This document shows, in pieces, positions 5,784 to 64,000 of a stretch of DNA of 64,000 bases. The notes under the pieces were generated by a model. It had not been told where the DNA came from. It did not search any database and saw only the letters and a program-made list of their open reading frames with translations. The translations under genes were made by a program, and so were the position numbers. Origin of the DNA: a bacterium (GTDB lineage: Bacteria; UBA8248); the NCBI GenBank assembly GCA_965199855.1, contig OZ241326.1, forward strand, positions 128,001 through 192,000, in the 5' to 3' direction. The number at the start of each line of letters is the position of its first letter. Within the stretch, counting starts at the first letter, position 1.

Positions 5784-5798
5784 CCCCGCTCCGGGAGG

Positions 5799-9244: not shown

Positions 9245-9273
9245 CGCGGACGGCGCGCCGGGGAGGAGCCCGC

Positions 9274-10494: not shown

Positions 10495-10496
10495 GG

Positions 10497-11411: not shown

Positions 11412-11556
11412 CAGCGGCTTCCAGGGTCCACGCGGACGGCGTCGAGAGCGTCTCTTTCGTCCACGATCCGCGTCCCTCCGAAAGCGAAAAGAAGCCGCCG
11501 CGAAGCCTACTACGCCGCCTTTCCCTCCGCCACGCGGCGCGCGAGGGCGGGCGGCC

Positions 11557-12723
11557 TCAAGTCTCCATCGCGCTCAGGACGGCGGAGACGAACCCCAGGA
11601 GCCGCAGCCCCTCCCGGATTCTCCGAAAAGAGAGGGCGCCTTGCCCGATTCCCACGTGGCGAAAGCCCTCCAGGACGAGGAGGGAGACGGGCTTCTCCGA
11701 GGTCTCGCCCGCCCGCTTCGCCAGCCGAACGCTCTCCGACGCCGGAACGAAGGGATCGCCGCGCCCGTGCAGAAAAAACATCGGCGCCGCAACCCTGGGC
11801 ACGACGTCGCGCATCCCCCACCGCCGCAGGCGCGCGCGCAGCTCCGCGTCCTGCCGCGCGTAGAGGGCCTCGAAGCGCCCGGGCGAGCGGTTCTCCATCA
11901 GCGCGACGAGGGCGCGGGCGCGCTCCGGCAGGCCCTCCAGCAGGCCGCTCACGTCCGCCGCCTCGTCCGCGCGCTTTCTCGAGACGATCTCCTCGATGCG
12001 GCGCCGATGCGCCTCCAGCCCCAGAAGCCTCGCGTTGTAGCGCAGGAAGAGCCACTTTCCGAGCCGGATGGGCGGGCCGCCCGCAAAGGCGGGCCGCTCC
12101 TGCCCGCCGCCCGTGGTGAGGTGCGCGAGCACGCTTTTCAGGTCGTAATAGGCGCCCACGCCGACGAAGGCGGACACCCGCGCCCCCGCTCCGGCCGCGG
12201 CGCGAAGGGCGGGCCCGGCGGCGAAGGAGAACGCCAGAAGCCCGCACTTCCCGAAAGCGCCCGCGCCGCCGCGCGTCATCCACCGCAGGATTTTTCCGAT
12301 GCGCGCGGCGTCCGCCTCCTCCGGGCGGAACCTCCTCATGCCGGGCAGGTCGGGGACGGCGACCGTGAAGCCCAGCCGCGCCAGGGCGCGCGCGAAGGCG
12401 GCGAGCCGGCTGTCCCGCCTGCCCGCCGTCGTCATGCCGTGAACGAGCGCGACGCAGCCCCTCGGGGGGGCATCGGCCGCCGAATACAGGTCCGCCTTAA
12501 TCCCTTCGGGGGCGATTCCGACCCTTCGCGGCGCCTTCGTCAGCGCGTCGAGCCAGCCGCCTTCGTCCGAGAGCGCCGCCTGCGCGAGCAGGAGGGCGCC
12601 CACGGGGTGGCGAAGCCGGGGCGAATGCGCCCGCGCGATGAAAGCCGCGAGCGCTACAAGCGCAACGAGCGCGGCGAGAAGAAGAGCGCTTCGGCGAACC
12701 GCGGGGCGCCGGAGGATGATCAG
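11557..12723 (-). CDS. Membrane-anchored or secreted alpha/beta hydrolase-like protein (start uncertain)
   Basis: N-terminal hydrophobic helix, LVHG, AFSFAAG nucleophile elbow, HGRGDPFVP, FRH. Confidence 0.7.
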   Translation of the reverse strand: MIILRRPAVRRSALLLAALVALVALAAFIARAHSPRLRHPVGALLLAQAALSDEGGWLDALTKAPRRVGIAPEGIKADLYSAADAPPRGCVALVHGMTTAGRRDSRLAAFARALARLGFTVAVPDLPGMRRFRPEEADAARIGKILRWMTRGGAGAFGKCGLLAFSFAAGPALRAAAGAGARVSAFVGVGAYYDLKSVLAHLTTGGGQERPAFAGGPPIRLGKWLFLRYNARLLGLEAHRRRIEEIVSRKRADEAADVSGLLEGLPERARALVALMENRSPGRFEALYARQDAELRARLRRWGMRDVVPRVAAPMFFLHGRGDPFVPASESVRLAKRAGETSEKPVSLLVLEGFRHVGIGQGALSFRRIREGLRLLGFVSAVLSAMET

Positions 12724-15611
12724 CCCGCCTTCGCCCCGTCGAGGCGCGCCCTGAGAAAGGCGCCCGTGTGCGAGCGGGGGCTTCGCGCCACCTCCTCGGG
12801 CGTCCCCTCGGCGACGATGCGGCCGCCCGCCTCCCCGCCCTCGGGGCCCAAGTCGATCACCCAGTCCGCCGCGCGAATCACGTCCAGATTGTGCTCGACG
12901 ACGACCACCGTGTTCCCCATTCCCACCAGGCGCGTCAGCACGTTCAGCAGCCGCTCCACGTCCTGAAAGTGCAACCCCGTCGTGGGTTCGTCCATGAGAT
13001 ACATCACCCCCCGGGGGGGGCGGGCGGCGAGCTGGCCCGCTATCTTGAGCCGCTGCGCCTCCCCGCCCGAGAGCGTGCTCACGGGCTGGCCGACGCGCAG
13101 ATAGTTCAGCCCCACGTCGCGCAGGATGAGCAGCTTGTTCAGCACCGGGGGGACGTGGCCGAAGAAGAGCATGGCCTCGTCCACCGTGAGGTTCAGCGCC
13201 TCGTGAACGTTCTTTCCCTTGTATTCGATCTCCATCGTCTGCGGCTTGAAGCGCCTGCCCTCGCAGTCCGGACAGCGGATGAACAGATCCGCCATGAAGT
13301 GCATCTCGATCTTGCGGATGCCGCTTCCCGCGCAGGATTCGCACCGCCCGCCGGGGGCGTTGAAGGAGAAGTGGCCGGGGCCATAGCCCATGCTCCGCGC
13401 CCGGGGCGTTCCGGCGAAGAGGCGGCGAACCGCGTCGTAGGCCTTCAGATAGGTGAGGGGGTTGCTGCGGGGGCTTTTCCCGATGGGGCTCTGATCGAGC
13501 AGGGCGACGGAGGCGAGCGCCTCGAATCCCTCGATGCGGCGGAAGCGGCCGATGGGGCCCTTCCCCTCGTGGAGAATCCGCGCCAGCGCCGGGTAGAGGG
13601 TGCCGCGTATGAGCGTGCTCTTGCCGGAGCCGGAGACGCCCGTGACCGCCGTCAGACGCCCCAGGGGAACGCGGAGGTTCACCCCCTTCAGGTTGTTCTC
13701 CCGCGCCCCCAGCAGGCGGAGGCGGGCGCCGTTGGCCTCCGCCTTCCTCCGCGCCCTCCTCGGGGCGACTTCGCGCTCGCCTCTCAGGAATTTCGCCGTC
13801 GCCGACCTCGCGCACCCGGCCAGCGCCTCCCGGGGCCCCGAGAAGACCACCTCGCCGCCGCGCTCGCCCGCGCCGGGCCCCAGGTCCACGACGTGATCCG
13901 CCTCGTTGATGATGTCGCGGTCGTGCTCGACCACGAGCAGGGTGTTGCCCCGCTCCACCAGCTCCTTGAGGATGCCCGCCAGCCGCGCGTTGTCCCTCGG
14001 ATGCAGCCCGATGGTCGGCTCGTCCAGGATGTAGAGCGTGCCCGTGAGGTGCGCGCCCAGCTGGTTCGCCAGGTTGATGCGCTGGTGCTCGCCGCCGGAG
14101 AGGGTTCTCGTCTCCCGATCCAGGGTGAGGTACTCCAGTCCCGCCTTGTGGAGAAAATCGAGGCGGTCGCGCACCTGCCGCGCGACGTCGCCCGCGCGCG
14201 CGTCCTGCTCCGGCGTCAGCGGCGGGGCGCGGAAATACTCCCGGAGCGCCTTGACCGGCATGGCGCAGATCTCGGAGATGGAGCGTCCCCCCAGCCTGAT
14301 CCGCAGCGCCTCGGGCCGCAGGCGCGCCCCCTTGCAGGCGGGGCAGACCTGCTGGCTCTGGTAGCGCCGGATGAGGACGCGCACCCACACCTTGTATTTC
14401 CTTCTCTTGAGCCGCTCGAAGAACGGACAGACCCCCAGGAGCTCCTCCGAACCCTCGAACACCATCTTCTTCTGGCGGGGCGGCATCTTCTCCCAGGGGA
14501 CGTGGATGTCGAGGCCCTCGCGGGCGGCGGCCTGCTGCAGCTGCCGGCCGAAGTGCCGGCGGTAGCGCGGCCGCGTCCACGGCTCCACCGCGCCCTGGGC
14601 GAGCGTCTTTCCGGGGTCGGGGATGATGAGGGACTCGTCGAGGCTGAGCGTCTTCCCGAACCCGCCGCACTCCGGACACGCCCCGTTCGGGTTGTTGAAG
14701 CTGAAGGTGTGCGGAACGGGCGGCTCGAACGCATGGCCGCAGCATTCGAGCTTCCGGCTGAACCGCAACCGGGGGCCGTCCACGAGCTGGACCTCGGCGA
14801 CGCCGCCTCCCTCCCGGAAGGCCGTCTCCAGCGACTCGCCCAGGCGCGCGCGGTTCCGGGGCGAGATTTTCAGGCGATCCGCCACGACGCGGATCGCGCG
14901 ATGGTTCCGCGTCCCCGCCGCCTTCCGCGCGGGCCTCCCCCGGCGCGGGCGGCCGCGCTTTGCGGCCGGGGGCGGCGCGCACCCCCCGAGCCGCTCGACG
15001 AGGGCGGGGCCGATTTCGAGAATCTCCTCGTCCGCCATGACGCGGACGAAGCCCCGCGCCATCAGCGATCTCAGCTCCTCCTCCAGGCTCTCCGCCTCGC
15101 CCTCGTCCGGCGGCAGGGGGAACAGGATGAAGCCCCGCGCGTCCGCGTAGGCGTCCAGCAGAAGCGAGACCACGCCGTCCACCGTGGCGGGGGCGACCTC
15201 GCCGCCGCAGTCGGGGCAGTGAATCTTCCCGGCCCTGGCGAAGAGCAGGCGGAGGTAGTCGTAAATCTCGGAAGCCGTGCCCACCGTGGAGCGCGAGTGG
15301 TTCACCGGATTGTATTGCTCGATGGCGATGGCGGGGCTGATGCCCTCGATGCAGTCCACGTCGGGCTTGTCCACCCGCTCCAGGAACTGCCGCGCGTAGG
15401 TGGAGAGGCTCTCCACGTAGCGGCGGTGGCCCTCCGCGTAGATGGTGTCGAACGCCAGGGAGGATTTTCCCGATCCGCTCGGCCCGGTGACGACGATGAA
15501 CCGCTCCCTCGGCAGGCGCAGGGAGACGTCCTTGAGGTTGTGCTCCCTTGCGCCCTCGACGCGGATGTCCTCCATGAAGGAGGCGGCGGGGGCGGAATCC
15601 TGCGCGCTCAT
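12720..15611 (-). CDS. uvrA: Excinuclease ABC subunit A
   Basis: [22 protein letters not shown], two LSGGE ABC signatures, Zn-finger CxxC pairs. Confidence 0.95.
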
Positions 15612-15702
15612 GGCTTCCCAGGGCTGAAGGGGACGGCGCGGGCGGCGAAGAAATCAAGCCCGCCAGTATGAGCCGCGTCGAGAGGCGCGTCAACGGGGGG
15701 CG

Positions 15703-16489
15703 TCAAATCCCCCGCAGCCGCCCGCCGTCCACGGCGAACGCCCCGCCCGATACGTAGCTCGCCTCGGGCGAGGCCAGAAACGCCACCATCGCGCCGAACT
15801 CCTCGGGCGCGCCCAGGCGGCCGAGCGGCGCCTCCCGCCCGGCGCGCGCCGCGGCCTCCTCGAAGGAAATCCCCAGCCGCCGGGCGGCGGCCGCGATTCC
15901 CTCGCGCGCGCGCTCCGTATCGATGACGCCGGGAAGCACGGCGTTGACCAGGATGTTCTCCGGCCCCAGGGCGCAGGAGAGCGACTTCGCCAGGCCGGCC
16001 GCGGCCGGCCGCATGACGTTCGAGAGCAGGAGATCGTCGATGGGCTCGCGCGCCGAGCTCGACAGGATGAACACGATTCTCCCGCCGCCGCGCGCCCGCA
16101 TGTGGGGCAGCGCCTCTCGGACGAGCCGCACCGCGCTCATCACGCCGAAGCTCGAACGCGGCGCGCCAGTCATCGTCGCCGAAATCCTCGAACCTCCCCC
16201 GGGGCGGGCCGCCCGCGTTGGCGACCAGAACGTCCGCGCCGCCGAAGCGGGAGGCGGCCCCGCGCACGAACTTCCGCGCCCCCGCCGCCTCGCTCACGTC
16301 CGCCGCGCAATGCCAGGTCTCCACGCCGGCGCGCGCGGCTATTTCCGCCGCGGCCGCGGCGCAGGCGGCCTCGTCCCGCGAGCAGACGGCCACGCGCGCC
16401 CCCCGCATCGCCAGCCTGAGCGCCGAGGCGCGCCCCAGCCCCCGGCTCGCGGCCGCCACCAGGGCGATTTTTCCCTCCATGTCCCGCAT
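15703..16489 (-). pseudogene. SDR family oxidoreductase with a single-base frameshift near 16149
   Basis: AASRGLG/NAGG half and VMSAVRL...GRLGAPEE...VDGG half are offset by one extra base (TTC GAG CTT C GGC GTG ATG). Confidence 0.75.
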
Positions 16490-16619
16490 CGGGCTTCCTC
16501 CCTGCCGCTCCCGTCATCGCGCCCGGGACGGCGAAGAAGCGGCGGGCCGCCGCCGCCGCGCTCCCGGCGAATTTCTCCGCCATGACCGCATTCAAGGGCA
16601 TCGGCCGCGCGAGGGCAAG

Positions 16620-16820
16620 CGGGCGGTTCCTTCTCAGAGGTCCCCGCGGGGCCAAGCGTGGTTCGCCTTCGCAGGGGCGACCCCTCCCCAAGGCCGCCCG
16701 TTTCGGATGCTCGCGCGTCGGCGGGAGGCGAACCCGGCGAAGGACAACCCGGGGGGTTGTCCCTGCGACCCGCGGCGTCCCCGTAGAGCCACGCATCGCC
16801 CCCCCTGCGGAACCAGCCCG
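16620..16820 (-). ncRNA. Candidate long rod-shaped structured RNA (6S-like size, family unassigned)
   Basis: Nested helices GGTTCC/GGAACC, CAGGGG/CCTCTG, GCGTGG/CCACGC, TCGCAGGG/CCCTGCGA, GGGTTGTCC/GGGCGGCCT in a gene-free gap. Confidence 0.5.
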
Positions 16821-16872
16821 TCCGTCCCCGCGAACGAAACGGGCGGGGGGCGACGCTCATCCCCCGCGCCCG

Positions 16873-18540
16873 TCACGCCCCGGCGGCGCGCTCCCGCTCC
16901 CGCAGGGCGCCGCGCCGTATCTTCCCCGTGGGCGTGAGGGGCAGGCTCTCGATGAACTCCACGGCGCGGGGCCGCTTGTAGGGGGCGATTTGCTCCTTCA
17001 CGAACTCCTGGAGCTCCCGCGCGAGCGCCGCGAGCGCCGCGAGCGCCGCCGGGGCGTCGGCCGCGTCCGCCTCCGCCGGAACGACGAACGCCTTGACGAT
17101 CTCGCCGCGCTCGGGGTTCGGCGAGCCGACCACCGCGCAGGCGCGCACCGCCGGGTGCTCCAGCAGGACGGCCTCCACCTCGAGGCCCGAGACGCCGTAG
17201 CCGCCGGTGTTGATCATGTCGTCGGCGCGCGCCTCGAAGGAGACGCGGCCCTCCCCATCCATGCGGCAGAGGTCTCCCGTGAGGTTCCAGCCGTCGCGCA
17301 CGTAGTTCCTCTGCCGCTCCGCGTCGTCGAGATAGCGGCACCCGGTGGGGCCCTTCACGATGAGCTGCCCCGTCTCGCCGGGGGGCAGGTCGCGCATCGC
17401 CTCGTCCACGACGCGCACCCGGTAGCCCGGCACGGCGCGGCCGATGCTGCCGGGGCGCGCCTCCTCCGCCCCCGCCGAGACGAAGATGTGGAGCAGCTCG
17501 GAGACGCCCAGGCCGTTGATGATCGAAACCCCCGTCCGCTCGCGCCATTCGCGCAGCACGGCGGGGGCGAGCGGCTCCCCTCCCGCGACGCAGGCGCGCA
17601 GGCTGCCCAGGTCGCGCGCCTCGGGGACGTCGAGCATCTGCCGGTAGCCCGAGGGCGTGCTGAAGCACACCGTCGCCCGGTATCGCTCGATGGCCGCCAG
17701 CAGCTCCCGGGGCGTTCCCCGCTCCAGCAGAACCATGGAGCTCCCGAAGCGCAGGGCGTCCGTGACGAAGGCGCAGAACCCGTAGAGAAAGGCGATCTGC
17801 GGACTGCCGCAGACGATATCGTCGGGCCCCAGGCCGAAGAGGCGGCCGGGAAACGCATCCGCGACGGCGAGCAGGTCCCGGTGAAAGTGCATCGTGCCCT
17901 TGGGCGTCCCCGTGGAGCCGGAGGTGAAGCCGATGAGGGCGACGTCGTCCGCCGCCGTGTCCGCGGCCCGGTATTCGGGCGGCGCCTGCGCCATGAGCGC
18001 CTCGAGGCCGTCGGCGCCGCCCCCGCCGAAGCGGACGACGCTCCCGAGGAAGCGGGAGGACTTCGCCGCGGCGAGCAGATCCGCCTCCAGCCGCGCGTCG
18101 CAGATCGCGAACCCGACCCGCGCCTTCTCCGCCACGTAGGCCAGCTCGCGCGCGCGCATGACAGGCATGGTCGGCACCAGGACGCCGCCCGCCTTCAGCA
18201 CGCCCAGGCAGGCGGCCACGAGCATCGGGTGGTTCGAGGCGCGAAGCAGCACGCGGCCCCCGGGCGGGAGGCCCAGCCGATCGGTCATCACCCGGGCGAT
18301 GCGGTCGGCGTTCTCCCGCAGCGCGCGGTAGCTCCAGAGGGTCTCGCCGAAGTATACGGCGGGCCGCTCCCCCCGCGCGCCTTCCGCCATCGCGTCGATG
18401 AGCGCGGCGCCCGCGTTCAGCCGGGGCGGATAGGCCGCCAGCTCCGGCAGGACGCCGTAGTCCATCTCCGGCCACAAGCGTTCGGGCGGAAGGTTCTCCC
18501 GCGCGAAGGCGTCCTCGTGGCCGCTCGGCTCAGCCGGCAT
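16873..18540 (-). CDS. 2-aminobenzoate/benzoate-CoA ligase-like AMP-binding protein
   Basis: N-terminal HEDAFARENLPP, FTSGSTGTPKGTMHFH, KGPTGCRYL, TGKIRR. Confidence 0.88.
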   Translation of the reverse strand: MPAEPSGHEDAFARENLPPERLWPEMDYGVLPELAAYPPRLNAGAALIDAMAEGARGERPAVYFGETLWSYRALRENADRIARVMTDRLGLPPGGRVLLRASNHPMLVAACLGVLKAGGVLVPTMPVMRARELAYVAEKARVGFAICDARLEADLLAAAKSSRFLGSVVRFGGGGADGLEALMAQAPPEYRAADTAADDVALIGFTSGSTGTPKGTMHFHRDLLAVADAFPGRLFGLGPDDIVCGSPQIAFLYGFCAFVTDALRFGSSMVLLERGTPRELLAAIERYRATVCFSTPSGYRQMLDVPEARDLGSLRACVAGGEPLAPAVLREWRERTGVSIINGLGVSELLHIFVSAGAEEARPGSIGRAVPGYRVRVVDEAMRDLPPGETGQLIVKGPTGCRYLDDAERQRNYVRDGWNLTGDLCRMDGEGRVSFEARADDMINTGGYGVSGLEVEAVLLEHPAVRACAVVGSPNPERGEIVKAFVVPAEADAADAPAALAALAALARELQEFVKEQIAPYKRPRAVEFIESLPLTPTGKIRRGALRERERAAGA

Positions 18541-56062: not shown

Positions 56063-57070
56063 GTGCCCCCCCGAAAGCCGTGGGTGGCCGTCGCCTCCAC
56101 GCCCGACCTGCCCGTCGCCATGCCGCCCGTCAGGAAGGCGCTGGCGGGGGTCGCGCCCGTCCGCGCCGTGGCGCTCCCCTTCCGGCCGCTCGGCGAGAAG
56201 GAGGAGGCCGCCTTCGCGCGGGAGCTCGCGGGGGCGGCGGGCGTCCTCCTGCGGTCCGGCCGCCTCACCGCCTCCCTGCTCGCGAGGCTTCCCGACCTCC
56301 GCGTGGCGGCCGTGCACGGCGCGGGGGTGGATCAGGTGGACCTGGAGGCGTGCGCGGCGCGCGGCGTGCGCGTCACCAACGCGCCGGGGGCGAACGCGAA
56401 CGCGGTCGCCGAGATGACGCTGGGCCTCATGCTCTCGCTCGCCAGGCGCATCCCGCAGGCGGCGGCGCGCGTGGGCGGCGAGCGCGTCTGGGGAGAGGCG
56501 CGCCACGCGGGCGTCGAGCTCCGGGGAAGGACGCTGGGGCTCGTGGGCCTGGGGCAGGTGGGGAGCCGGCTGGCGAAGCTGGCGGGCGCGATGGGGATGA
56601 AAGTCCTCGCCCGCGATCCGGGCCTCGCCCGCGAGGAAATCCGGGCGCGCGGGGCGCGGCCCGCCGGGTTCGACGCCCTGCTGCGCCGGGCGGACTTCCT
56701 CTCCCTTCACGCGCCCCTCGCGCCCGGGACGCGCCGCCTCATCGACGCGCGCGCCCTCGCGCGGATGAAGAAGGGCGCGTTCCTCGTCAACGCCGCCCGC
56801 GGCCCGCTGGTGGACGAGCGGGCGCTCGCGCGCGCCCTCCGGAGCGGACGACTCGCCGGCGCCGCGCTCGACGTGCTGGAAGGCGAGCCGCCCGACCCCC
56901 GAAGCCCCATCTTCGACGCGCCGGGCCTCATCCTCACCCCGCACATGGCGGGCTCCACGCGGGAGTGCCTGGAGGCCGTCGCCGCCCGCGCGGGCGCGGA
57001 CATCGCGCGCGTCCTCACGGGCCGAAGACCCAGACACCCCGTGAGCGCGCCCGAGCGAAAGCCCGCCTGA
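56063..57070 (+). CDS. D-isomer-specific 2-hydroxyacid dehydrogenase (SerA-like)
   Basis: GAGVDQVD, GLGQVG, NAARG, LDVLEGEP, TPHMAG. Confidence 0.9.
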   Translation: MPPRKPWVAVASTPDLPVAMPPVRKALAGVAPVRAVALPFRPLGEKEEAAFARELAGAAGVLLRSGRLTASLLARLPDLRVAAVHGAGVDQVDLEACAARGVRVTNAPGANANAVAEMTLGLMLSLARRIPQAAARVGGERVWGEARHAGVELRGRTLGLVGLGQVGSRLAKLAGAMGMKVLARDPGLAREEIRARGARPAGFDALLRRADFLSLHAPLAPGTRRLIDARALARMKKGAFLVNAARGPLVDERALARALRSGRLAGAALDVLEGEPPDPRSPIFDAPGLILTPHMAGSTRECLEAVAARAGADIARVLTGRRPRHPVSAPERKPA

Positions 57071-57213
57071 GCCGCCCGGCCGCCGGATGAGCGGCGCCGC
57101 CTCCGAAAGCGCTCCCGATTCGCCCGAAATCGCCCCCTGCCGTCGCCGCCGATTTTCTCAACCTATTGTAAATGCTTCGGTTTCGCTTATGCGCCGCGCC
57201 CCGAAGGGGGCGT

Positions 57214-57297
57214 GAATTTGTCGAAAAAGGTCGTGAATTTGCGGGATAAAGCTTTGAATTTGCGGAAAAAGGCCAGGAATTTGTCGAAAAAGCCCGT
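57214..57297. repeat. 4 x 21-bp degenerate tandem repeat (GAATTTG core)
   Basis: GAATTTG starts at 57214, 57235, 57256, 57277, each followed by an A tract. Confidence 0.85.
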
Positions 57298-57756
57298 CCA
57301 TGCGCTCGCCATCGCCCGCTTCCGCAAAGCGCGCGGCGGGGGGTCGGGAAGCCCCCGAAGCGGCGGCGGGAGAAGCGCGAAGGCGGACGCCGCCTTCCCG
57401 GGCGATGGGCGGGGGCCTCGCCCGCCTGCGCGGGCTGCGGCGCCGGCCTCCGTCGCCCCGCCCGCCTTCCGTCGCTCCGGGAGCCGCTCGCTTCCCGGCC
57501 TCGGGTCCGCGGGGTCGCGCGCCGGGCGGCCGTCTCCGGCGCGCGCGCATTCTGGCGCGGACGGAAGCGAACCCGAAACGCGCAAATGCGGGCAAATGCG
57601 CGCGAAGGGGGGAATTGTCTTTCCCGCGCGCTTGTTTTAGAATGGCGACAGCGCATTTGACGCGCGCTGAGCATGTCATCGCCCTTACAGGAAAGAGAAA
57701 TGCGCCCTTGACGCGCCGCCTCCGGCGCTTCGCCCTCGCAGGCAGCGGATGAAAGA

Positions 57757-59106
57757 ATGACGGATCGGGCGATTCTCGATATCCCGGCGATGGAGGCTTC
57801 GCGGGAACTCCGCGCCCCGCAGGCGGCGGCGCCCGATTCCCTTCATCCCTTCCGATACGAACACCCCGACCACGAGAGCCTCCCGCACGTCGTGAAGTTC
57901 TCCGGCGGCCGGACGAGCGGGATGCTGCTGCTCCTTCTTCTCGAGGCGAGCCTCCTGAAGGCGGAGCGCGGCGACGTGGTCGTCTTCAACAACACCTCGG
58001 CGGAGCATCCCAAAACCTATGAATTCGCCCGCCGCTGCAAGGAGTTCGCCGAGCGGAAGCACGGCCTCCCCTTCTTCTGGCTGGAATACCAGACCTACGA
58101 GGACGCCAGGGGCGGCGAATATACGCGCCTTCCGTCCTGGCGCCTCGTGAACGCCGAGCCCCGCTCGGAGTCGAACCCGGAAGGCTATCACTGGCGGGGA
58201 GAGGTGTATGAGGAGCTGCTGTCGTGGACGGGCTTCGTCCCCAATCTCTTTCAGCGCACCTGCACGCAAAGCCTGAAGCTGGAGACGACCCGCGCCTTCC
58301 TCAAGGAATGGTTCGCCGACAGGCCCGGAACCGAGCGCCTGGGGCATTTCGGGAAGGCGAGCCGTCTGGAGGACGACGAACTGTATGAGCGCCATCTGCG
58401 CAGCGGCGGCGGCGTGCCCAGGGAGATATTTCTGGAGAAGAAGCGGTTCGCCCGGGAGCGGCCATTTCACAGGCCGGCGCAGCTTTACGCCGATTTTTCC
58501 TCCCCGGCGCGCGGCTTCCAAAGCCCGTATCTGGCCGAAAGCGTCCCGGGAGAGAGCGTCGTCTTCGGAGAGGAGGGGGTGGAGTATCTGAGCTTCGTCG
58601 GTCTGCGGGGCGACGAGCCGCACCGGGTCGCCAGGGTGCGCCGGCGCAACGGCGGCGGGCCGGAATCCGCGGGCTACCGGGGCGAGCGCGCCCGTATGCC
58701 GCTTTTCGACAGGGGCGTCACAAGGGAGGACGTCGAGGATTTCTGGCGAAGGCGGAGCTGGAATCTCGACCTGGATTCCGAAGCCGGCCTTTCCAACTGC
58801 GCCTTCTGCTTTCTGAAGGGCGTCGGCGCGCTTCAGAACGCCCGCGCCGCCCTCGGCGCCGAAGCGGAGGAGGAGCTCAGGGATACGCCCTGCGATTTGA
58901 ACTGGTGGGTGGCGCTGGAGCGAAAATACGGGCGGGATCTGAAAGCCGAAAAGCGGACGACCGCGCGGGAGATTCCCGACGACTTCATCGGATTCTTCGG
59001 CGCGTCGAGCGGATTTTCCTACCGACGGCTGGCGGAGGCGCCGATGACGAAGGGCGCCCTCGCCGAATTCGCGGAAAGCGTCCTGCCCTGTGACTGCACG
59101 GATTGA
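57757..59106 (+). CDS. PAPS-reductase-like/PP-loop (adenine nucleotide alpha hydrolase) protein with Cys clusters
   Basis: FSGGRTS PP-loop, NTSAEHPKTYEF, RTCTQSLK, VGLRGDE, PL, SNCAFCFLK, C-terminal CDCTD. Confidence 0.8.
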   Translation: MTDRAILDIPAMEASRELRAPQAAAPDSLHPFRYEHPDHESLPHVVKFSGGRTSGMLLLLLLEASLLKAERGDVVVFNNTSAEHPKTYEFARRCKEFAERKHGLPFFWLEYQTYEDARGGEYTRLPSWRLVNAEPRSESNPEGYHWRGEVYEELLSWTGFVPNLFQRTCTQSLKLETTRAFLKEWFADRPGTERLGHFGKASRLEDDELYERHLRSGGGVPREIFLEKKRFARERPFHRPAQLYADFSSPARGFQSPYLAESVPGESVVFGEEGVEYLSFVGLRGDEPHRVARVRRRNGGGPESAGYRGERARMPLFDRGVTREDVEDFWRRRSWNLDLDSEAGLSNCAFCFLKGVGALQNARAALGAEAEEELRDTPCDLNWWVALERKYGRDLKAEKRTTAREIPDDFIGFFGASSGFSYRRLAEAPMTKGALAEFAESVLPCDCTD

Positions 59107-59145
59107 GGCCCGCTCGCGCGACAGGCGGCAAGGAGACCCTATTCA

Positions 59146-61164
59146 ATGAAAAAGCGAAGCCGGAGGAAAGGCGGAAAAGCGAAGCGGCCCAATCTACAGC
59201 GGCCCGACCTCCGGTTTGGGCCCGGGGACTTGTCCGGCTTCACCGCCGCGGGAGTCGCCGGGTTTCACGAGCTCAACCCGGCGACGGTCGTCAGGGAACT
59301 TCTGCAGAACTCCCTTGACGCGGCGCGCGAGGCGGGACGAGACGTCGCCCGCATCCGCTTCGAGGTCGAAAAGCGCGCCCTCGATTCGGTTCCCGGCATC
59401 GAGTCTTATCGATCGGCATTCAGGCGAGCGATAGAAGACCAGGAAAAACTCCTGGGCGGAAAGCTGCAGGATACGGCGACGGGAATCGCGCGCGCCATGG
59501 AAGACTGCCTGAAGTCCGGCGAATGCGAGACGCTTTTCGTGCTGGACAACGGCATCGGCCTGGATGAGAGCAGAATGCGAGGCTTGCTCGGCGACGGCCT
59601 GAGCGTCAAGGGCGACGCGGGAACCGGCGCTCTCGGCAACGGACATCTGACGGTCGTGCCGGCGTCCGACCTGCGCTACGTTCTCTACGGCGGACGGACG
59701 GAGGACGGAGAGATCATCGGAGCGGGCCACGCGGTTCTGGCTTCCCACCAGCGAGAGGGCAAGCGCAAAAGCAAGGACGGATTCTACGTCAAGGCTATCC
59801 GCGAAGATTTTTTCGAGCCTTACGTGTTTCCCCGAAACGGCGAGGTTCCCGACTACGTAAAAGCGAAGCTGGAATGGATCGCGGCGAACTGGGAGCCGGG
59901 CGCGGGCGCCGTGGTGGCCGTTCCCGGCTTCAACCGCTTCCGCGCGGAGGAAGACTCGCTGTGGGACATGGCGTCGAAGGCCGCCGCGTGCAACTTCTTC
60001 GCCGCGTTCGCAAAGGGAGAACTGCGCGTCGAGCTTCGGGAAAACGGCGAGGAAAAATCGCTGGACAAGTCGAACATAGGCGAGACTTTGGAGAAATTCA
60101 GCGACGAGAAGCGAACGCGCGGCGGCTTTCTGAGCGGATCAAGAGCGCTCGCCGCCTTCGAGACGATAGAAAAAGGCGAAGACGTTTCGGTCGACGCCGG
60201 GACCGGGCGAATTTCCATGCGCTGGCGCGAACCGCCCCAGGGCGGCCTTTCCAGAGTCGAACTCTGTCGAAACGGCATGTATATCACCGACGATTTGCCC
60301 AGGCTCCAAAGGGCCCGATTTGCGGATTTCAAGCCGTTTCATTGCGTGATTCTGCTGGACTCGAACGATGGCGAGATTCATCGACTCGTACGCAAGGCGG
60401 AAGGCCCGCTGCACAATCGCCTGGAAGCCAGAAAATGGCTCTTCAAGGAGGAAAAAGCCGCGCTGGACAAAGCGATGAAAGCCGTTTTTTCCAAGCTGCG
60501 AGAAATCCTTCCGAGACACGACGCGGAAGAATTCGAGATAGCGGACGTGATGGCGATTGACGCAAGCGGCATCTCCTCCGGCGGACGCCGGCCGCGCATG
60601 GTCGGGCGTTTCGGAGAGGTGCGGAGGCGGCCGCGCTTTCCAAAGGAAACGGACGAGGGAGAGGAAAGGGAGGTCGGCCCCGGGCCCGTCGACGATCCGA
60701 AAGGCGCGGGCAAGGGCGGAGGGGTCAATCCCGGCCGGCGGGGACGCGGGACTTTCCGCCGCTCGGGCAGCGCCATTCCGTTCAGCGCGCTTGCGATCCC
60801 CGTCGGGAAGCGCTCCTGCCGCGTCGATCTTCGCCCCGGCGAGAAGACCGCCGGAAGCGAGGCGCGGTTCGCCCTCGACGAGAGCCTGGACGAGAGCTGC
60901 GGCGCTTTCGGGTCGGAAGAATTCGCGGAGATCAGGAACGTGAGAATAGACGGCGCGCCCGCGTCCGAAGCCATGCTGACGCTTGACGAGGAAGGCCGGG
61001 CGCTCGGCGTCCGGCTCGGCGCGCTCGACCCGGAAAAGGAGATCCGGATCGAATTCGACTACGCACCGCCCGCGAGCCTTCATCTGGCGGACGACATGCC
61101 GGTTGTCCTGAATACGCAGCTGATTCGCCGGAAAGCGGCTTCTGAAAAGCGGGAGTCCCCGTGA
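59146..61164 (+). CDS. GHKL (HATPase/MORC-like) ATPase-domain protein
   Basis: N-box RELLQNSLDA, G1 DNGIGL, G2 GTGALGNG; AAGGAG RBS. Confidence 0.75.
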   Translation: MKKRSRRKGGKAKRPNLQRPDLRFGPGDLSGFTAAGVAGFHELNPATVVRELLQNSLDAAREAGRDVARIRFEVEKRALDSVPGIESYRSAFRRAIEDQEKLLGGKLQDTATGIARAMEDCLKSGECETLFVLDNGIGLDESRMRGLLGDGLSVKGDAGTGALGNGHLTVVPASDLRYVLYGGRTEDGEIIGAGHAVLASHQREGKRKSKDGFYVKAIREDFFEPYVFPRNGEVPDYVKAKLEWIAANWEPGAGAVVAVPGFNRFRAEEDSLWDMASKAAACNFFAAFAKGELRVELRENGEEKSLDKSNIGETLEKFSDEKRTRGGFLSGSRALAAFETIEKGEDVSVDAGTGRISMRWREPPQGGLSRVELCRNGMYITDDLPRLQRARFADFKPFHCVILLDSNDGEIHRLVRKAEGPLHNRLEARKWLFKEEKAALDKAMKAVFSKLREILPRHDAEEFEIADVMAIDASGISSGGRRPRMVGRFGEVRRRPRFPKETDEGEEREVGPGPVDDPKGAGKGGGVNPGRRGRGTFRRSGSAIPFSALAIPVGKRSCRVDLRPGEKTAGSEARFALDESLDESCGAFGSEEFAEIRNVRIDGAPASEAMLTLDEEGRALGVRLGALDPEKEIRIEFDYAPPASLHLADDMPVVLNTQLIRRKAASEKRESP

Positions 61165-62003
61165 TGGCGCGGGTCGGAGAACTCGTCCGCTCCCTTCCCT
61201 ATCCCGCCATCGAGGACGGCAACCTCTCCTTTCCCGAAGGCGAGTATCTGGCCGATGCGACGCCGCAGCGAGGCGAGGCTTCGGCGCTCCTCAGCCACGA
61301 GATAAGGGGCGCGCCTTTTCTCGAGCGCCTGATTTCCGAGGGCGAGGCCAGATACGGCTGCCTGGTTTCCGTGCCGGCGACGGGATACAGAAAACTGCAT
61401 TTGTCGGACGAGGCGCGCCAGCTCGTGGAGTGGGACACGGGCGTGGTGGGCGAGCCGCCCATGCTGCGCCCTCTGGTCGTCGCCGTCGCCGAGATTTCCC
61501 GCGTCCCGGGGCCGGAGGACGGGGTGGCGGAGGCGTGGCGGGGACGGAAGCTCATCATTCCCAAGGGGGCGCGCCTCGCCCTGCATCCCTATTTGCGGCC
61601 GACGGCCTCTCTCCAGCGTCTGCTTCACGCGGTGAAAGACGAGGACTTGCCTGGCGGCTGCTTCGAGGTCAAGCCGTGCGAGGAAAACGGCTTCTACTTC
61701 AAGGTTCACGCGGCGTCCGACCTGTTTCCCTTCCTGCAAAACGCGGGGCGACATCCGCTTCACCGGCGCAGCGTGCTGACGCACGCGGCGAGCAGGTGCC
61801 TCGAGATACTGGCGCGGGATTACGGCGCGGCCGAGGACGGCGAGGACGGCGCGAAATGGGAGCCGTTCCCCAACCTGAAAGCCCTGGCGGATGCGTTCGG
61901 GAAGCGCGGGCTTCAGATGTGGAACGAGGACGGCTTCGCCGCCGACAGGGCGGCGACGCAATGGTATCCCCATCGTCCGCCCGAAGCGGAAGACGGGGAA
62001 TAG
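61164..62003 (+). CDS. Hypothetical protein, translationally coupled to the GHKL gene
   Basis: TGATG stop/start overlap; N-terminal LPYPAI motif; globular composition. Confidence 0.75.
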   Translation: MARVGELVRSLPYPAIEDGNLSFPEGEYLADATPQRGEASALLSHEIRGAPFLERLISEGEARYGCLVSVPATGYRKLHLSDEARQLVEWDTGVVGEPPMLRPLVVAVAEISRVPGPEDGVAEAWRGRKLIIPKGARLALHPYLRPTASLQRLLHAVKDEDLPGGCFEVKPCEENGFYFKVHAASDLFPFLQNAGRHPLHRRSVLTHAASRCLEILARDYGAAEDGEDGAKWEPFPNLKALADAFGKRGLQMWNEDGFAADRAATQWYPHRPPEAEDGE

Positions 62004-62011
62004 GGCGCGCC

Positions 62012-62881
62012 ATGTCCCGCGAACAGTTCGAGGACGCCTCCTATACCGAATTGCGCGGGAATCTGCTCCGGTCGAAAGGCTCCGGGGCGGCGCGGGATTT
62101 TCTGGCCGCCCTGCGCGACAGCGGGGAATTCGCGGAATGGATCGGGGAGCGGGTTCAGGTCGAGCCGGGGGACGGCCTGCCTCTTCTGGAAGACCCGCTC
62201 ACGGAATCGGAGTTCAAGGAGCCGCCCAGAAGCGCGGAAAAATGGATGTTCGACGCCTGGGAATCCATCGCTCCGGCGGACGCCTGCCGGGTTCCGTTCT
62301 GGGGACTCGTGACCCTGCGCCATATCGAGGCGGGGCGGATCGAATCCCGCTATCTGGCCGCGGACGGCGGCGCCTTGTCCGGGGGACGGGAAAGAATCGA
62401 CCGGACGCTGAGGGAAGGAGCCGCAAGCGAGGTTGACGGCGTCGTTCGCGCGGCGTTGCGCCGCATGAGCGGCCTGCCGGAGGCGCGCGGCAGCCGCAGC
62501 GTCTATGTGAACTGCCCGTTCGCGCGCGCATGGTGGCGCGGATATCTGGCGCGCGAGATTTGCGGGGAATCCGGCGCGGAGCCGGGGCGCGTCGCGAAGG
62601 TTCTGAGCGTCTCGCAGTCCTACTGGGAGGAGCTCATCAATCTCGTCGTATCGAGAAATTCCGTCCTGGGCGACGCGAAGGCGCGCACCGCCCTCGTCTG
62701 GGCGCTTTCGGAACTCATCAACGACGAGGACAAAAAGCGCCTGTTCCACGCGAATACGCTGACGCGAATCCAGAGGCTCATCGGGGTTCGCTCCGCGTGG
62801 CAGGAGCTGGGCGTCTTCTCGGTGGGGGAATTGAAGGAGATGATGATCGGCGAGTTCATCGCGGCGATCCGGCCCGGGTAG
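62012..62881 (+). CDS. Hypothetical protein (DUF6339-like, tentative)
   Basis: ATG 8 nt after the upstream stop; FWGLVTL and NCPFARAWWRG motifs. Confidence 0.65.
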   Translation: MSREQFEDASYTELRGNLLRSKGSGAARDFLAALRDSGEFAEWIGERVQVEPGDGLPLLEDPLTESEFKEPPRSAEKWMFDAWESIAPADACRVPFWGLVTLRHIEAGRIESRYLAADGGALSGGRERIDRTLREGAASEVDGVVRAALRRMSGLPEARGSRSVYVNCPFARAWWRGYLAREICGESGAEPGRVAKVLSVSQSYWEELINLVVSRNSVLGDAKARTALVWALSELINDEDKKRLFHANTLTRIQRLIGVRSAWQELGVFSVGELKEMMIGEFIAAIRPG

Positions 62882-62894
62882 CCCTTTCCCCCGC

Positions 62895-64000
62895 TCAGGG
62901 GCCCAGGGTCATCTTCGCGCTCAGGAAGAGGGCGCGTCCCAGGGAGGAGGCGAGGGTCGCGTCCGGGCTCGCGCCGCCGGGGAGGCGCGAGGGGCCGCGG
63001 TCGCCCGCGTTCAGGACGCCGCCCAGCAGCTCCAGCCCCCGCACGCCGAAGGCGCCGCGCCAGCGCAGGGTGAGGTCGTGCCCCGTCCAGCCGCCGTAGC
63101 GGGCGGTTCGCGCGGCGTTCTCGTAGCCCGAGGCGGCGTATACGCTCCAGTTCGCCGTGAAGCGGCCCCGGCTCGCGCGGAGCGAGGCGTGGGCGCGGTC
63201 GCGCGGGTAGGCCGCGGGCCTCTCGCGCCCGGCCGCGCGGGTCTCGCGCTCGCTCACGCGCAGCCAGCGCAGGCTCAGGCGAAAGTCCGCCGCCGCCGTC
63301 TTCCAGGAGGCGCCCGCGCGCGCGTCCAGCCCCCTCAGGTCGATTTCCCCGACGCCGCCCCACGAGCCCTCGATGCGCCTTATCGCCCCGCCCTCGCGCG
63401 CGACGCGCAGGCCGGCGGGCAGGCGTCCCGCCGCGTCGAGATCGACGATCTCCTGCGGGGAGAGCCGCGCGGGCGCCCTGGAGACGCCGACGCGGAACCA
63501 GTCGAGGCTGAACGAGAAGGGCGCCAGGCGCGCCTCGGCGCCCAGGCTCACGCTCTCCGCCTCGTCGGGGGAGAGCCTCGGGTTGCCGCCGTCCACGTGG
63601 AGGGCGCGCGTCCGCTCGCAGCCGCCGCCCGGACGCGGGGCGCAGACGGAAGCCTCGCTCCTCGTCTCATGCTGGCCCATCGCGCGCAGGTCGGGCGCCG
63701 CGCCGCCCGCCCCCCAGGAGGCGCGAAGCGCGAAAGCCTCCGTCGGGCGCCAGCGCGCGGCGACCTCCCGCGAGAGCGTCCCGCCCGCGTCGTCGCGCTC
63801 GTCACGCCGCCCGGCGAGGGAGACCTCCCAGCCCGGGAGCAGGGGGAGGACGACTTCCGCGAACGCGGAGAGGCGCTCGCGCTCGCCGTCCGCCGAGGCG
63901 CCGCTCGCCCCGCGCACGTCGCCCGGGTCGTGGGCGCGGCCGCGCGCGTCGCGGTAGCGGCGGACGTATCGCCACTCCTCGGAGGCGGCCTCGACGCCCC
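62895..64000 (-). CDS. TonB-dependent receptor, C-terminal part (runs off the window)
   Basis: SAFAEVVLP, GGNPRLSPDEAES, GGVLN and a terminal beta-strand pattern. Confidence 0.75.
   Translation of the reverse strand, partial: GVEAASEEWRYVRRYRDARGRAHDPGDVRGASGASADGERERLSAFAEVVLPLLPGWEVSLAGRRDERDDAGGTLSREVAARWRPTEAFALRASWGAGGAAPDLRAMGQHETRSEASVCAPRPGGGCERTRALHVDGGNPRLSPDEAESVSLGAEARLAPFSFSLDWFRVGVSRAPARLSPQEIVDLDAAGRLPAGLRVAREGGAIRRIEGSWGGVGEIDLRGLDARAGASWKTAAADFRLSLRWLRVSERETRAAGRERPAAYPRDRAHASLRASRGRFTANWSVYAASGYENAARTARYGGWTGHDLTLRWRGAFGVRGLELLGGVLNAGDRGPSRLPGGASPDATLASSLGRALFLSAKMTLGP

What the first reader, a model, noticed from the sequence alone, without database searches (positions are those of the whole stretch)
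57757..62881. Candidate new DNA-modification/defence system: PAPS-reductase-like enzyme + GHKL ATPase + unknown + DUF6339-like protein
Seen: four tightly spaced co-directional genes (39-nt gap, TGATG overlap, 8-nt gap), visibly less GC-rich than their flanks and inserted between metabolic genes. Gene 1 has a PP-loop and Cys motifs, gene 2 has GHKL N/G1/G2 boxes, and genes 3-4 have no clear function. Known: PAPS-reductase-fold proteins act in phosphorothioation (DndC, SspD) and BREX type 4 (BrxP), and prokaryotic MORC-type GHKL ATPases associate with restriction-modification loci. No DndB/D/E, SspB/C, BREX core, methyltransferase or cysteine desulfurase gene is in the cassette, so it matches no system I recognise. 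Inference: gene 1 writes a non-methyl DNA mark in place of a methyltransferase, and genes 2-4 form an ATP-driven reader/restriction module.
Basis: partly seen in the sequence, partly recalled or inferred. Interest (0 to 1): 0.88.

Follow-up and report, generated by a model that had tools for sequence, protein, structure and literature searches.

The report
Candidate new DNA phosphorothioation system
Four linked genes that travel together in bacteria of many phyla most likely form an undescribed machine that puts a sulfur mark on the cell's own DNA for anti-virus defence, built around a different kind of ATP motor from the known systems.

Summary
Four intact, tightly spaced genes lie at 57757-62881: g1 is a PP-loop/PAPS-reductase-like protein, g2 a GHKL ATPase, g3 and g4 are unknowns. 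Same-genus genomes have the empty site, so the cassette is an insertion.

The four genes co-occur in 71 of 76 loci anchored on g2 and 34 of 45 anchored on g1, in two gene orders and many phyla.

In relatives the core sits with classic phosphorothioation (PT) genes:
- a DndA/SspA-type cysteine desulfurase (56/76);
- DndB-like DGQHR proteins (6/76);
- either a DUF262/GmrSD-type protein (32/76) or a 'dnd_restrict_1'/PbeA helicase-nuclease block (18/76), never both.

g1 is a distant SspD/BrxP relative. g2-g4 are distant relatives of the untested PADLOC candidate PDC-M33, which on plasmids lacks g1 and sits beside dcm methyltransferases. g3 and g4 fold confidently but match no solved fold. A complex model docks g1 on g4 (0.80; best control 0.00).

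Best reading: a new PT-type DNA-sulfur system in which a GHKL trio replaces the P-loop partners of Dnd, Ssp and BREX-4. This window holds a minimal copy with no desulfurase or nuclease. Chemistry and the trio's role are untested. My searches found no description.

The parts
57615..57643 (+). promoter-like site (TTGTCT-17-TAGAAT) about 115 nt upstream of g1
   Evidence: Consensus scan: 1 site found against 0.6 expected in shuffles. Weak evidence only.
57757..59106 (+). g1: PP-loop / PAPS-reductase-like protein, distant SspD/BrxP/DndC relative; proposed sulfur-inserting writer
   Evidence: Pfam PAPS_reduct E 1.2e-3, 19.4 bits, below the 22.5 cut-off. PADLOC SspD 2.7e-8 and BrxP 2.2e-4. Of 21 family members, 21 hit SspD, 18 BrxP and 4 DndC. 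PP-loop and five invariant Cys. No solved relative by sequence.
59146..61164 (+). g2: GHKL (Bergerat-fold) ATPase, distant relative of PDC-M33A, with a family-specific conserved C-terminal domain (about 541-672)
   Evidence: PADLOC PDC-M33A 9.4e-21. NCBIfam sacsin ATP-binding-like domain 3.3e-7. N, G1 and G2 boxes invariant in 18 sequences. Profile search: 455 cluster representatives at E<=1e-30 and 2447 at E<=1e-3.
61164..62003 (+). g3: unknown protein (beta-rich N-terminal half, helical C-terminal half), distant relative of PDC-M33B
   Evidence: 24 of 24 family members hit PDC-M33B, best 3.6e-13. hhalign against the Arthrobacter M33B: E 1.8e-5, probability 78%. AF2 pLDDT 86. No Foldseek PDB hit at E<=1e-3.
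62012..62881 (+). g4: all-helical unknown protein, DUF6339/PDC-M33C-like; predicted docking partner of g1
   Evidence: Pfam DUF6339 E 0.02, below cut-off. 10 of 22 members hit PDC-M33C, best 1.2e-5. AF2 pLDDT 91, pTM 0.88. No Foldseek PDB hit, best E 1.3. Complex model with g1: ipSAE 0.80 against best control 0.00.

Best explanation
The cassette is a minimal member of a widespread, undescribed DNA-sulfur modification family, most likely phosphorothioation (PT).

Proposed mechanism:
- g1 is the PP-loop enzyme. It activates the target with ATP and inserts sulfur.
- The sulfur comes from a cysteine desulfurase. That gene is in the operon in most relatives. Here it would be supplied in trans by one of the genome's two IscS/NifS-type enzymes.
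- g1 does not work alone. It is docked on the DUF6339-like g4.
- With g3 and the GHKL ATPase g2, it forms one ATP-driven machine that engages DNA and decides where the mark goes. This is the job that the P-loop partners DndD/E, SspB/C and BrxC do in the known systems.
- Cutting of unmarked DNA is done by separate, interchangeable genes: a DUF262/GmrSD-type protein, or an HKD-nuclease/SF2-helicase block with a DndD-like ATPase. Those genes are absent from this genome.
- The copy in this window is therefore a modification-only ('orphan') system or, less likely, a BREX-like system that interferes without a nuclease.

Shown here: gene linkage, homologies, neighbourhoods, the insertion, and the predicted folds.
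Inferred: the chemistry, the DNA substrate, the complex, and the division of labour.
For: Linkage:
- All four genes are present in 71 of 76 genome loci anchored on g2. Four of the five misses are cut by contig ends.
- g2 lies next to g1 in 34 of 45 metagenome loci anchored on g1. Two gene orders occur: g1 first in 23, and g2-g3-g4-g1 in 11. Linkage persists down to about 30% identity.

PT context in the 76 loci:
- Cysteine desulfurase in 56: PADLOC DndA 3.6e-147 and SspA 1.2e-146; NCBIfam IscS/DndA.
- DGQHR/DndB-like in 6: Pfam DndB 9.3e-19; TIGR03187 above its cut-off.
- DUF262/GmrSD_N protein in 32.
- A PbeA / TIGR04095 'dnd_restrict_1' block in 18, with TIGR04096 'dnd_rel_methyl' (1.9e-173) and a DndD-like ABC ATPase.
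- The two nuclease options never occur together (0 of 76).
- In about 20 loci the DUF262 gene lies inside the operon, between the desulfurase and g2.

g1 homology: 21 of 21 members hit SspD, 18 of 21 BrxP, 4 of 21 DndC.

Precedent: DndD and SspC NTPase activity is described as essential for PT synthesis, and BrxC is genetically required (PMC12914056, passages).

Complex model:
- g1 against g3+g4 scores ipSAE 0.80, 0.78-0.81 in 3 runs. The best of 3 controls is 0.00. That mark was reached by 58 of 80 solved complexes and 2 of 110 mismatched pairs. Runs agree in at least 81% of contacts, and the partner's pLDDT is at least 83.
- The interface uses g1 116-122, 196-208 and 262-267, and g4 61-75 and 120-134. 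These include family-invariant residues: g1 D116, G196, H197; g4 T64, E65, R128, L133.
- Neither protein has a solved relative, so a pass from memory is unlikely.
- The g1 contact residues fall in the stretch between its PP-loop match (44-97) and its SspD-like match (272-353), which the known writers' models do not cover.

Other points:
- One locus (L011) has one g1 and three g2-g3-g4 sets. This fits a trio that sets specificity for a shared writer.
- The own genome has two IscS/NifS-like genes, 43% identical to the operon-encoded desulfurase of L004 used as query.
Against: - There is no chemical evidence for any mark.
- g1's similarity to known writers is weak. It is below Pfam's gathering score, and no NCBIfam DndC match appeared.
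- Bona fide PDC-M33 trios live without any PP-loop enzyme, beside autonomous dcm methyltransferases that have their own restriction enzymes. The trio's basic role is therefore not 'helper of a sulfur writer', which favours an effector or sensor role.
- TdpC is a precedent for a writer that needs no partner (PMC12914056 passage).
- 26 of 76 loci, and this window, have no recognised nuclease. That fits either reading.
- The complex result is a model. It used my own unpaired alignments, so its calibration holds only roughly.
- G008 keeps intact g3 and g4 after losing most of g1 and g2. This may be a recent deletion, or a function of g3-g4 on their own.
- The loci are mostly MAGs. They are the best 80 of 152 matches, and related genomes are not independent.
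Confidence: 0.5

Rival explanations
1. g1 is an autonomous writer (like TdpC) that marks self DNA. g2-g4 form the ATP-driven reader/interference module that acts on unmarked DNA. The DUF262 and PbeA-like genes in relatives are extra, stacked defences.
For: - PDC-M33 trios exist without g1, in defence islands next to dcm plus restriction enzyme in 4 of 5 plasmid contexts. This suggests a module that works with whatever mark is present.
- PDC candidates were defined from genes embedded in BREX, DISARM or type I RM systems (preprint 10.1101/2024.01.29.577857, passages).
- tdpC alone suffices for PT synthesis (PMC12914056 passage).
- Other GHKL-type ATPases act in defence. [quoted passage not shown]
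- The minimal four-gene form has no other effector.
Against: - No nuclease motif or fold was recognised in g2-g4.
- Recognised PT-linked nuclease modules are present as mutually exclusive alternatives in 50 of 76 loci. That is the pattern of a conserved writer with swappable restriction partners.
- The model docks g1 on g4 through family-invariant residues.
- L011 has three trios and one g1.
Confidence: 0.27
2. The mark is not a phosphorothioate. g1 makes another sulfur-containing (for example base thiolation) or adenylate-derived DNA modification, using the same desulfurase relay.
For: - g1 is far from DndC, SspD and BrxP (E 1e-4 to 1e-10 only).
- It carries an insertion of roughly 120 aa and a C-terminal C-D-C motif.
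- The PP-loop/PAPS-reductase fold also serves RNA-thiolating enzymes (PMC12914056 passage).
Against: The neighbours are those that NCBIfam and PADLOC name as PT-associated: DndA, DGQHR/DndB, dnd_rel_methyl, dnd_restrict_1/PbeA, DndD-like. No other DNA-sulfur mark is known (recalled).
Confidence: 0.1
3. Two independent systems that merely sit side by side: an orphan PT-type writer and a PDC-M33-like defence trio.
For: - Defence genes cluster in islands.
- PDC-M33 occurs alone.
- One locus (L019) has the trio with no g1 within 8 kb.
Against: - Co-occurrence in 71 of 76 and 34 of 45 loci from two independent anchors.
- Linkage across many phyla, two gene orders, and down to about 30% identity.
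- Overlapping or near-abutting reading frames.
- A predicted g1-g4 interface.
Confidence: 0.03
4. Not a nucleic-acid system at all: a sulfur-assimilation or cofactor/tRNA-thiolation enzyme with an Hsp90-like chaperone.
For: - The flanking genes in the window are metabolic.
- The PAPS-reductase fold and cysteine desulfurases also serve metabolism.
Against: - The cassette is an insertion. It is absent from most same-genus genomes: the g2 query found it in 3 of 22 others. The flanks are contiguous in genomes without it.
- Neighbours in other genomes are nucleases, helicases, DGQHR proteins and transposases, not metabolic genes.
Confidence: 0.04

Closest known systems
SspABCD-SspE phosphorothioation defence
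   Same: A PAPS-reductase-type writer: g1's best PADLOC match is SspD, in 21 of 21 members. An SspA/DndA-type cysteine desulfurase in the operon of most relatives. An ATPase partner. A DUF262-type protein as frequent neighbour (32 of 76), in the position SspE holds.
   Different: No SspB (DUF4007) or SspC P-loop ATPase match in the window's four proteins. The partners are a GHKL ATPase and two unknown folds. The DUF262 proteins did not match a PADLOC SspE model at E<=0.01; they matched HEC-05/BrxU-like models weakly. g1 carries a large insertion.
DndABCDE with DndFGH or PbeABCD (CxC-ABC ATPase systems)
   Same: Relatives carry DndA-like, DndB-like (DGQHR), 'dnd_rel_methyl' (TIGR04096), 'dnd_restrict_1'/PbeA and DndD-like ABC ATPase genes next to the core. 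The writer module is often found without a restriction module, as reported for Dnd (PMC10853773, abstract and passages).
   Different: DndC models match only 4 of 21 g1 members, and not the window's copy. There is no DndD/DndE in the core. The ATPase of the core is Bergerat-fold, not ABC.
BREX type 4 (brxPCZL)
   Same: A PAPS-reductase-type writer takes the place that a methyltransferase holds in sister systems. The writer is tied to a multi-protein ATPase core (PMC12914056 and PMC12839542, passages). g1 weakly matches BrxP (18 of 21). The trio's cousins (PDC-M33) sit by methyltransferases.
   Different: No BrxC, PglZ or BrxL match. BrxP is an SspD-SspB fusion, whereas g1 has no DUF4007.
PADLOC candidate PDC-M33 (three genes; untested)
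   Same: Same three families in the same order: GHKL ATPase, 'B', DUF6339-type 'C'.
   Different: The matches are distant (window: 9.4e-21, 5.9e-5, 3.1e-3). Bona fide PDC-M33 has no PP-loop enzyme or desulfurase, has a 62-76 aa ORF upstream in 4 of 5 contexts, and lies by dcm plus restriction enzyme. g2 has a different C-terminal domain.
Tdp (tdpABC)
   Same: A PT system in which a PAPS-reductase-type writer is paired with non-Dnd, non-Ssp partner proteins (PMC12914056 passage).
   Different: tdpC alone makes PT. No Tdp sequence or model was available to me, so homology is untested.
Prokaryotic MORC / sacsin-like GHKL ATPases (e.g. Tiamat)
   Same: Bergerat-fold ATPase in a defence context. 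g2 hits NCBIfam 'sacsin N-terminal ATP-binding-like' at 3.3e-7.
   Different: No PADLOC Tiamat match at E<=0.1. No fused nuclease. A different middle and C-terminal architecture.

Membership tests
Ssp (SspABCD-SspE) | SspD: PAPS-reductase/PP-loop writer | tested here: inconclusive
   PADLOC SspD E 2.7e-8 for the window protein, with no single stretch significant on its own. 21 of 21 family members match, best 1.7e-10. This is distant homology, not membership.
Ssp (SspABCD-SspE) | SspB (DUF4007) and SspC (P-loop ATPase) partners | tested here: not met
   No SspB or SspC match for g2, g3 or g4 at E<=0.1 in PADLOC. Pfam and NCBIfam give none either.
Ssp (SspABCD-SspE) | SspA cysteine desulfurase and SspE (DUF262+DUF1524) nearby | tested here: not met
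   Neither is in the window's cassette or flanks. In relatives, an SspA/DndA-like gene is present in 56 of 76 loci and a DUF262 protein in 32 of 76, but the latter matches no PADLOC SspE model at E<=0.01.
Dnd (DndABCDE) | DndC writer with DndD (ABC ATPase) and DndE | tested here: not met
   The window's g1 has no DndC match; 4 of 21 members match weakly. No DndD or DndE among g2-g4.
BREX type 4 | brxP with brxC, pglZ (brxZ), brxL | tested here: not met
   BrxP E 2.2e-4 over the PP-loop only. No BrxC, PglZ or BrxL matches in the cassette.
Tdp | TdpC writer with TdpA/TdpB | not testable with these tools
   No Tdp model exists in the PADLOC 2.0.0 library used, and I held no sequence. The PDB profile search with the g1 family found nothing relevant.
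PDC-M33 (PADLOC candidate) | Three adjacent genes matching models M33A, M33B, M33C in that order | tested here: inconclusive
   The window gives A 9.4e-21, B 5.9e-5 and C 3.1e-3, in the same order. For the family, B matches 24 of 24 members and C 10 of 22. A bona fide trio scores 3.5e-82, 6.4e-30 and 1e-31. This is a distant sister group rather than a member.
GHKL/Bergerat ATPases | N box (ExxxNxxD), G1 box (DxGxG), G2 glycine box | tested here: met
   E51, N55, D58; D134, G136, G138; and G161, G164, G166 are invariant in 18 sequences. Pfam HATPase_c scores only E 0.061.
DUF6339 (Pfam PF19866) | Score above Pfam's gathering threshold | tested here: not met
   15.1 bits against a cut-off of 23.2. 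hhalign of the g4 family against an annotated DUF6339 protein gives E 0.0039, probability 8.7%, but is collinear over 183 columns.
PP-loop ATP pyrophosphatases (PAPS_reduct, PF01507) | SGGxDS-type PP-loop and a score above the gathering threshold | tested here: inconclusive
   The motif S49-G-G51-R-T-S54 is present and conserved. The Pfam score is 19.4 bits against a cut-off of 22.5, covering only profile positions 2-50.

The most novel reading that the evidence does not exclude
This is a fifth, independent DNA-sulfur (phosphorothioate) writing machinery. A Bergerat-fold GHKL ATPase and two new folds replace the P-loop NTPase partners so far held to be required. The same trio is a swappable chassis that pairs with cytosine methyltransferases elsewhere (PDC-M33), much as BREX pairs with PglX or BrxP. 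It would then be a BREX-like superfamily of its own, exchanged among bacteria of many phyla.
Probability: 0.42. Interest if true: 0.85.

Novelty: new variant of a known kind. Interest (0 to 1): 0.76.

Why it matters
According to passages of PMC12914056, four PT systems are established: dnd, ssp, tdp and brxPCZL. That study's neighbourhood screen for new ones required a P-loop NTPase next to the writer, so it would miss a GHKL-based system by design.

A family of this size could hold a large unseen share of DNA-sulfur epigenetics in uncultured bacteria. The g2 profile finds 455 representative clusters at E<=1e-30, and the loci carry many different phylum- and class-level labels.

It would also give a function to the untested candidate PDC-M33 and to DUF6339, and add two new protein folds to DNA-modification biology. 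It offers a clean test of whether the ATPase partner or the writer sets the PT target motif.

Tried and rejected
- Solved-structure relatives by sequence profile for g1-g4: none of relevance.
- Foldseek of the g3 and g4 models against the PDB: nothing at E<=1e-3. The weak fibronectin/Ig-type rows for g3 have TM 0.15-0.25 and are not taken as a fold assignment.
- ESM Atlas: g3's nearest clusters are unnamed hypothetical proteins. g4 gave no usable hit.
- g3 and g4 as paralogues: rejected (BLASTP E >= 13). Their merging in my ORF clustering was an artefact of long overlapping ORFs.
- Rfam on 56900-63100: no family.
- Terminator-like sites: 6 found against 7.3 expected, so uninformative.
- Expression: no RNA holder listed.
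- PbeA-like protein in the own genome: not found with this query.
- A distant DUF262 protein lies about 2.6 Mb away, at 24-32% identity. I could not link it to the cassette.

Literature searches (full-text library only; supplements closed, and they may list this family, for example the network data of PMC12914056 or the PDC tables of the Payne preprint):
- 'PDC-M33': 0 papers.
- 'DUF6339': 0 papers.
- phosphorothioate / GHKL / PAPS reductase: 27 papers, 20 listed, none describing such a system.
- phosphorothioat with MORC / HATPase / Hsp90-like / sacsin: 285 papers, 15 listed, none relevant.
- phosphorothioation + sponge + symbionts: 14 papers, none on this family by title or abstract.
- 'histidine kinase-like ATPase' with DndC: 0 occurrences.
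- PMC10853773 and PMC12839542 contain 0 mentions of GHKL or MORC.

I did not build a phylogeny. The claim of horizontal spread rests on patchy distribution in the genus, different insertion sites and high identity across differently labelled lineages.

Full report
**What is there.** The window is GC-rich (0.691). At 57757-62881 it carries four co-directional ORFs:
- g1, 449 aa;
- g2, 672 aa, after a 39-nt gap that holds an AAGGAG Shine-Dalgarno;
- g3, whose ATG at 61164 overlaps the g2 stop as TGATG;
- g4, 289 aa, after an 8-nt gap.

A promoter-like site lies at 57615-57643. To the left are hydantoinase A/B and a 2-hydroxyacid dehydrogenase. To the right, on the other strand, is a TonB-dependent receptor. 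Cassette GC is 0.652, against 0.78 for both immediate neighbours. That is unremarkable for the window as a whole, because 12.7% of equal-sized windows are as low.

**It is an insertion.** The window is positions 128001-192000 of a complete 3.04-Mb genome. With g2 as query, the system was found in 3 of 22 other genomes of the same genus and in 0 of 18 more distant relatives searched.

All 22 genus genomes have the orthologous dehydrogenase. What lies next to it differs:
- In G010 and G019 it sits 62-230 bp from the TonB-receptor gene. In G014 the gap is about 1 kb.
- G001 has the same four genes at the same site.
- G008 has a remnant there: g1 residues 4-86 and g2 residues 625-669, followed by intact g3 and g4.
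- In G016 and G018 the cassette is on other contigs than the dehydrogenase.

**The four genes are one unit.** A scan of one genome per species with a g2 alignment gave 152 relatives. The best 80 were kept, as 76 loci.
- tblastn finds all four genes in 71 of 76 loci.
- L029, L065, L066 and L067 are cut by contig ends.
- L019 has no g1 within 8 kb.

Anchoring independently on g1 in metagenome contigs gave 45 loci, and 34 have g2 beside g1. In 23 the order is g1 first. In 11 it is g2-g3-g4-g1, with identities down to about 30%. Of the 11 misses, six are short or cut contigs, one carries only a g1 fragment, and four are distant 27-29% matches.

Record titles name Gamma- and Alphaproteobacteria, Binatia, several acidobacterial orders, Nitrospinota, Spirochaetia, Latescibacterota, Dehalococcoidia, Longimicrobiales, Entotheonella and others. 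A full profile search with the g2 family finds 455 representative clusters at E<=1e-30, 1586 at E<=1e-10 and 2447 at E<=1e-3. All source names seen are 'hypothetical protein', or for g1 'PAPS reductase/FAD synthetase'.

**What the proteins are.**

*g1.*
- It has a PP-loop (K47-F-S-G-G-x-x-S54) and invariant C169, C348/C351 and C445/C447.
- Matches are weak: Pfam PAPS_reduct is below threshold, PADLOC SspD is 2.7e-8 and BrxP 2.2e-4.
- Across 21 family members, 21 match SspD, 18 BrxP and 4 DndC.

*g2.*
- It has intact Bergerat boxes.
- It matches PDC-M33A (9.4e-21) and a sacsin-type ATP-binding domain (3.3e-7).

*g3 and g4.*
- Both are distant relatives of PDC-M33B and PDC-M33C. B matches 24 of 24 members, and C 10 of 22.
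- Both fold confidently (pLDDT 86 and 91).
- Neither resembles a solved structure.
- They are not paralogues of each other.

**The neighbourhood says sulfur and DNA.** Clustering the ORFs of the 76 loci and annotating the recurrent extras gave the counts below.

| Accessory gene | Loci (of 76) | Support |
|---|---|---|
| Cysteine desulfurase, usually between g1 and g2 | 56 | PADLOC DndA 3.6e-147, SspA 1.2e-146 |
| DUF262/GmrSD_N protein, inside the operon or just after g4 | 32 | Pfam GmrSD_N 3.7e-24 |
| Block with an HTH protein, a PbeA-type helicase-nuclease and a DndD-like ABC ATPase | 18 | PADLOC PbeA 6.2e-151; TIGR04095 'DNA phosphorothioation system restriction enzyme' 4.5e-94; DndD 4.7e-22 |
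| 'DNA phosphorothioation-associated putative methyltransferase' | 11 | TIGR04096, 1.9e-173, above cut-off |
| DGQHR/DndB-like protein upstream of g1 | 6 | Pfam DndB 9.3e-19; TIGR03187 above cut-off |

The DUF262 and PbeA-type options never co-occur (0 of 76). Twenty-six loci have neither. Ten have none of the extras, and these include the closest relatives of the window (L001, L005, L006, L008, L028).

According to PMC10853773 (passages), PbeA is an HKD nuclease fused to an SF2 helicase. That paper also reports that Dnd writer modules are often uncoupled from restriction modules. This is the pattern seen here.

The window's genome has no desulfurase in the cassette, but it has two IscS/NifS-type genes elsewhere.

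**The trio has a life of its own.** Bona fide PDC-M33 trios (PADLOC 3.5e-82, 6.4e-30, 1e-31) occur on plasmids of Arthrobacter, Paenarthrobacter, Deinococcus, Priestia and Lactococcus.
- None has a PP-loop enzyme or desulfurase in the 15-kb views. The PLSDB gene table is incomplete, so this is not proof of absence.
- In 4 of 5 contexts a cytosine methyltransferase with a restriction endonuclease lies within about 3 kb. The Lactococcus trio lies by an AlwI-type RM system.
- PDCs are 145 untested candidates derived from genes embedded in BREX, DISARM or type I RM systems (preprint 10.1101/2024.01.29.577857, passages).

So the trio is a module that recurs beside DNA-modification genes. In the family studied here, a sulfur writer is fixed to it.

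**How it most likely works.** Passages of PMC12914056 state the following:
- DndC and SspD supply the PAPS-reductase/pyrophosphatase step.
- DndD and SspC NTPase activity is essential.
- brxC is required for PT.
- Only tdpC works alone.

By analogy I propose that g1 is the writer and that g2-g4 are its ATP-driven DNA-engaging partners.

A complex model supports a physical link.
- g1 (31-449) against g3+g4 scored ipSAE 0.80 (0.78, 0.81, 0.80). The best of 3 controls scored 0.00.
- That mark was reached by 58 of 80 solved complexes and 2 of 110 mismatched pairs.
- The runs agree in at least 81% of contacts, and the partner's pLDDT is at least 83.
- All confident contacts are with g4.
- The contacts use g1 116-122, 196-208 and 262-267, and g4 61-75 and 120-134. 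These include invariant or near-invariant residues of both families.
- The g1 contact residues lie in the stretch that the SspD and PAPS_reduct models do not cover.
- No like complex is solved.

This is a model, not a measurement, and my alignments differ from those used to calibrate the tool.

Two further observations fit a joint machine. In the alternative gene order, g4 directly precedes g1. Locus L011 has one g1 and three trios.

**What remains open.** Nothing here shows the chemistry or the substrate.
I give that 0.27.
- A BREX-like double role, in which the trio is needed for marking and also blocks unmarked DNA, is compatible with both readings.
- A sulfur mark other than PT gets 0.1.

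**Novelty.** My searches and the passages I read found no description of a PAPS-reductase-type writer with a GHKL ATPase. The published screen for new PT systems required a P-loop NTPase neighbour and so would not have retrieved this family. I rate it a new variant of a known kind: a PT-type modification/defence system with a new, non-homologous partner set.

Noticed in passing
window 57071-57756: The spacer between the dehydrogenase gene and g1 holds a dispersed repeat. About 57192-57290 (four tandem units of about 21 nt) matches at least 18 other places in the genome at 81-86% identity. A second piece (about 57540-57604) recurs 300-400 bp from the first in the same copies. This looks like a MITE-like element of about 400-450 bp. 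At this site in G001 the spacer is only about 115 bp.
   Followed up: partly
L089 (G008:C10:2185000-2198000), about 6416-8484: A decayed copy of the cassette at the same chromosomal site in a same-genus genome. Only g1 residues 4-86 and g2 residues 625-669 remain, followed by full-length g3 (62% identity) and g4 (69%).
   Followed up: partly
L011 (about 658-14015) and L046 (about 5375-17383): L011 carries one g1 and three successive g2-g3-g4-type sets (the first is cut at the locus start). L046 carries two complete g1-g4 sets in tandem.
   Followed up: no
L012 2748-7946: A four-gene block is inserted between the desulfurase and g2: a PLD-like nuclease, an unknown, an SF2 helicase and a second, MORC-type GHKL ATPase (HATPase_c_3, 1.4e-21). 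It may be another restriction module.
   Followed up: no
L120, L123, L124, L127, L128, L131, L134-L136, L138, L148: A more divergent branch of the family has the reversed module order g2-g3-g4-g1(-desulfurase). It sometimes continues into the X14-PbeA-ABC block or a DUF262 gene.
   Followed up: partly
L086, L096, L097, L098 (plasmid PDC-M33 loci): A 62-76 aa ORF directly precedes the GHKL gene in 4 of 5 plasmid contexts. Each of these four also has dcm plus a restriction endonuclease (with vsr in two) within about 3 kb.
   Followed up: no
record titles of L001-L076: Nearly all carriers are metagenome-assembled genomes. Several bear names that I recall as sponge-associated candidate lineages (Entotheonella, Porisulfidus, Porifericomitales, Binatia, Nitrospinota bins). 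A habitat enrichment is possible but was not tested, and I did not trace samples.
   Followed up: no
L063 6739-7995 and L007 6280-7275: ISL3 and IS110 transposase genes are inserted inside the operon, between the accessory genes and g2, in two loci.
   Followed up: no
G000:C1:2796446-2797879 (L081/L082): A distant DUF262-type ORF (556-aa open frame, 24-32% identity to the family's DUF262 partner, with one TAG reported inside the first match) lies about 2.6 Mb from the cassette.
   Followed up: no
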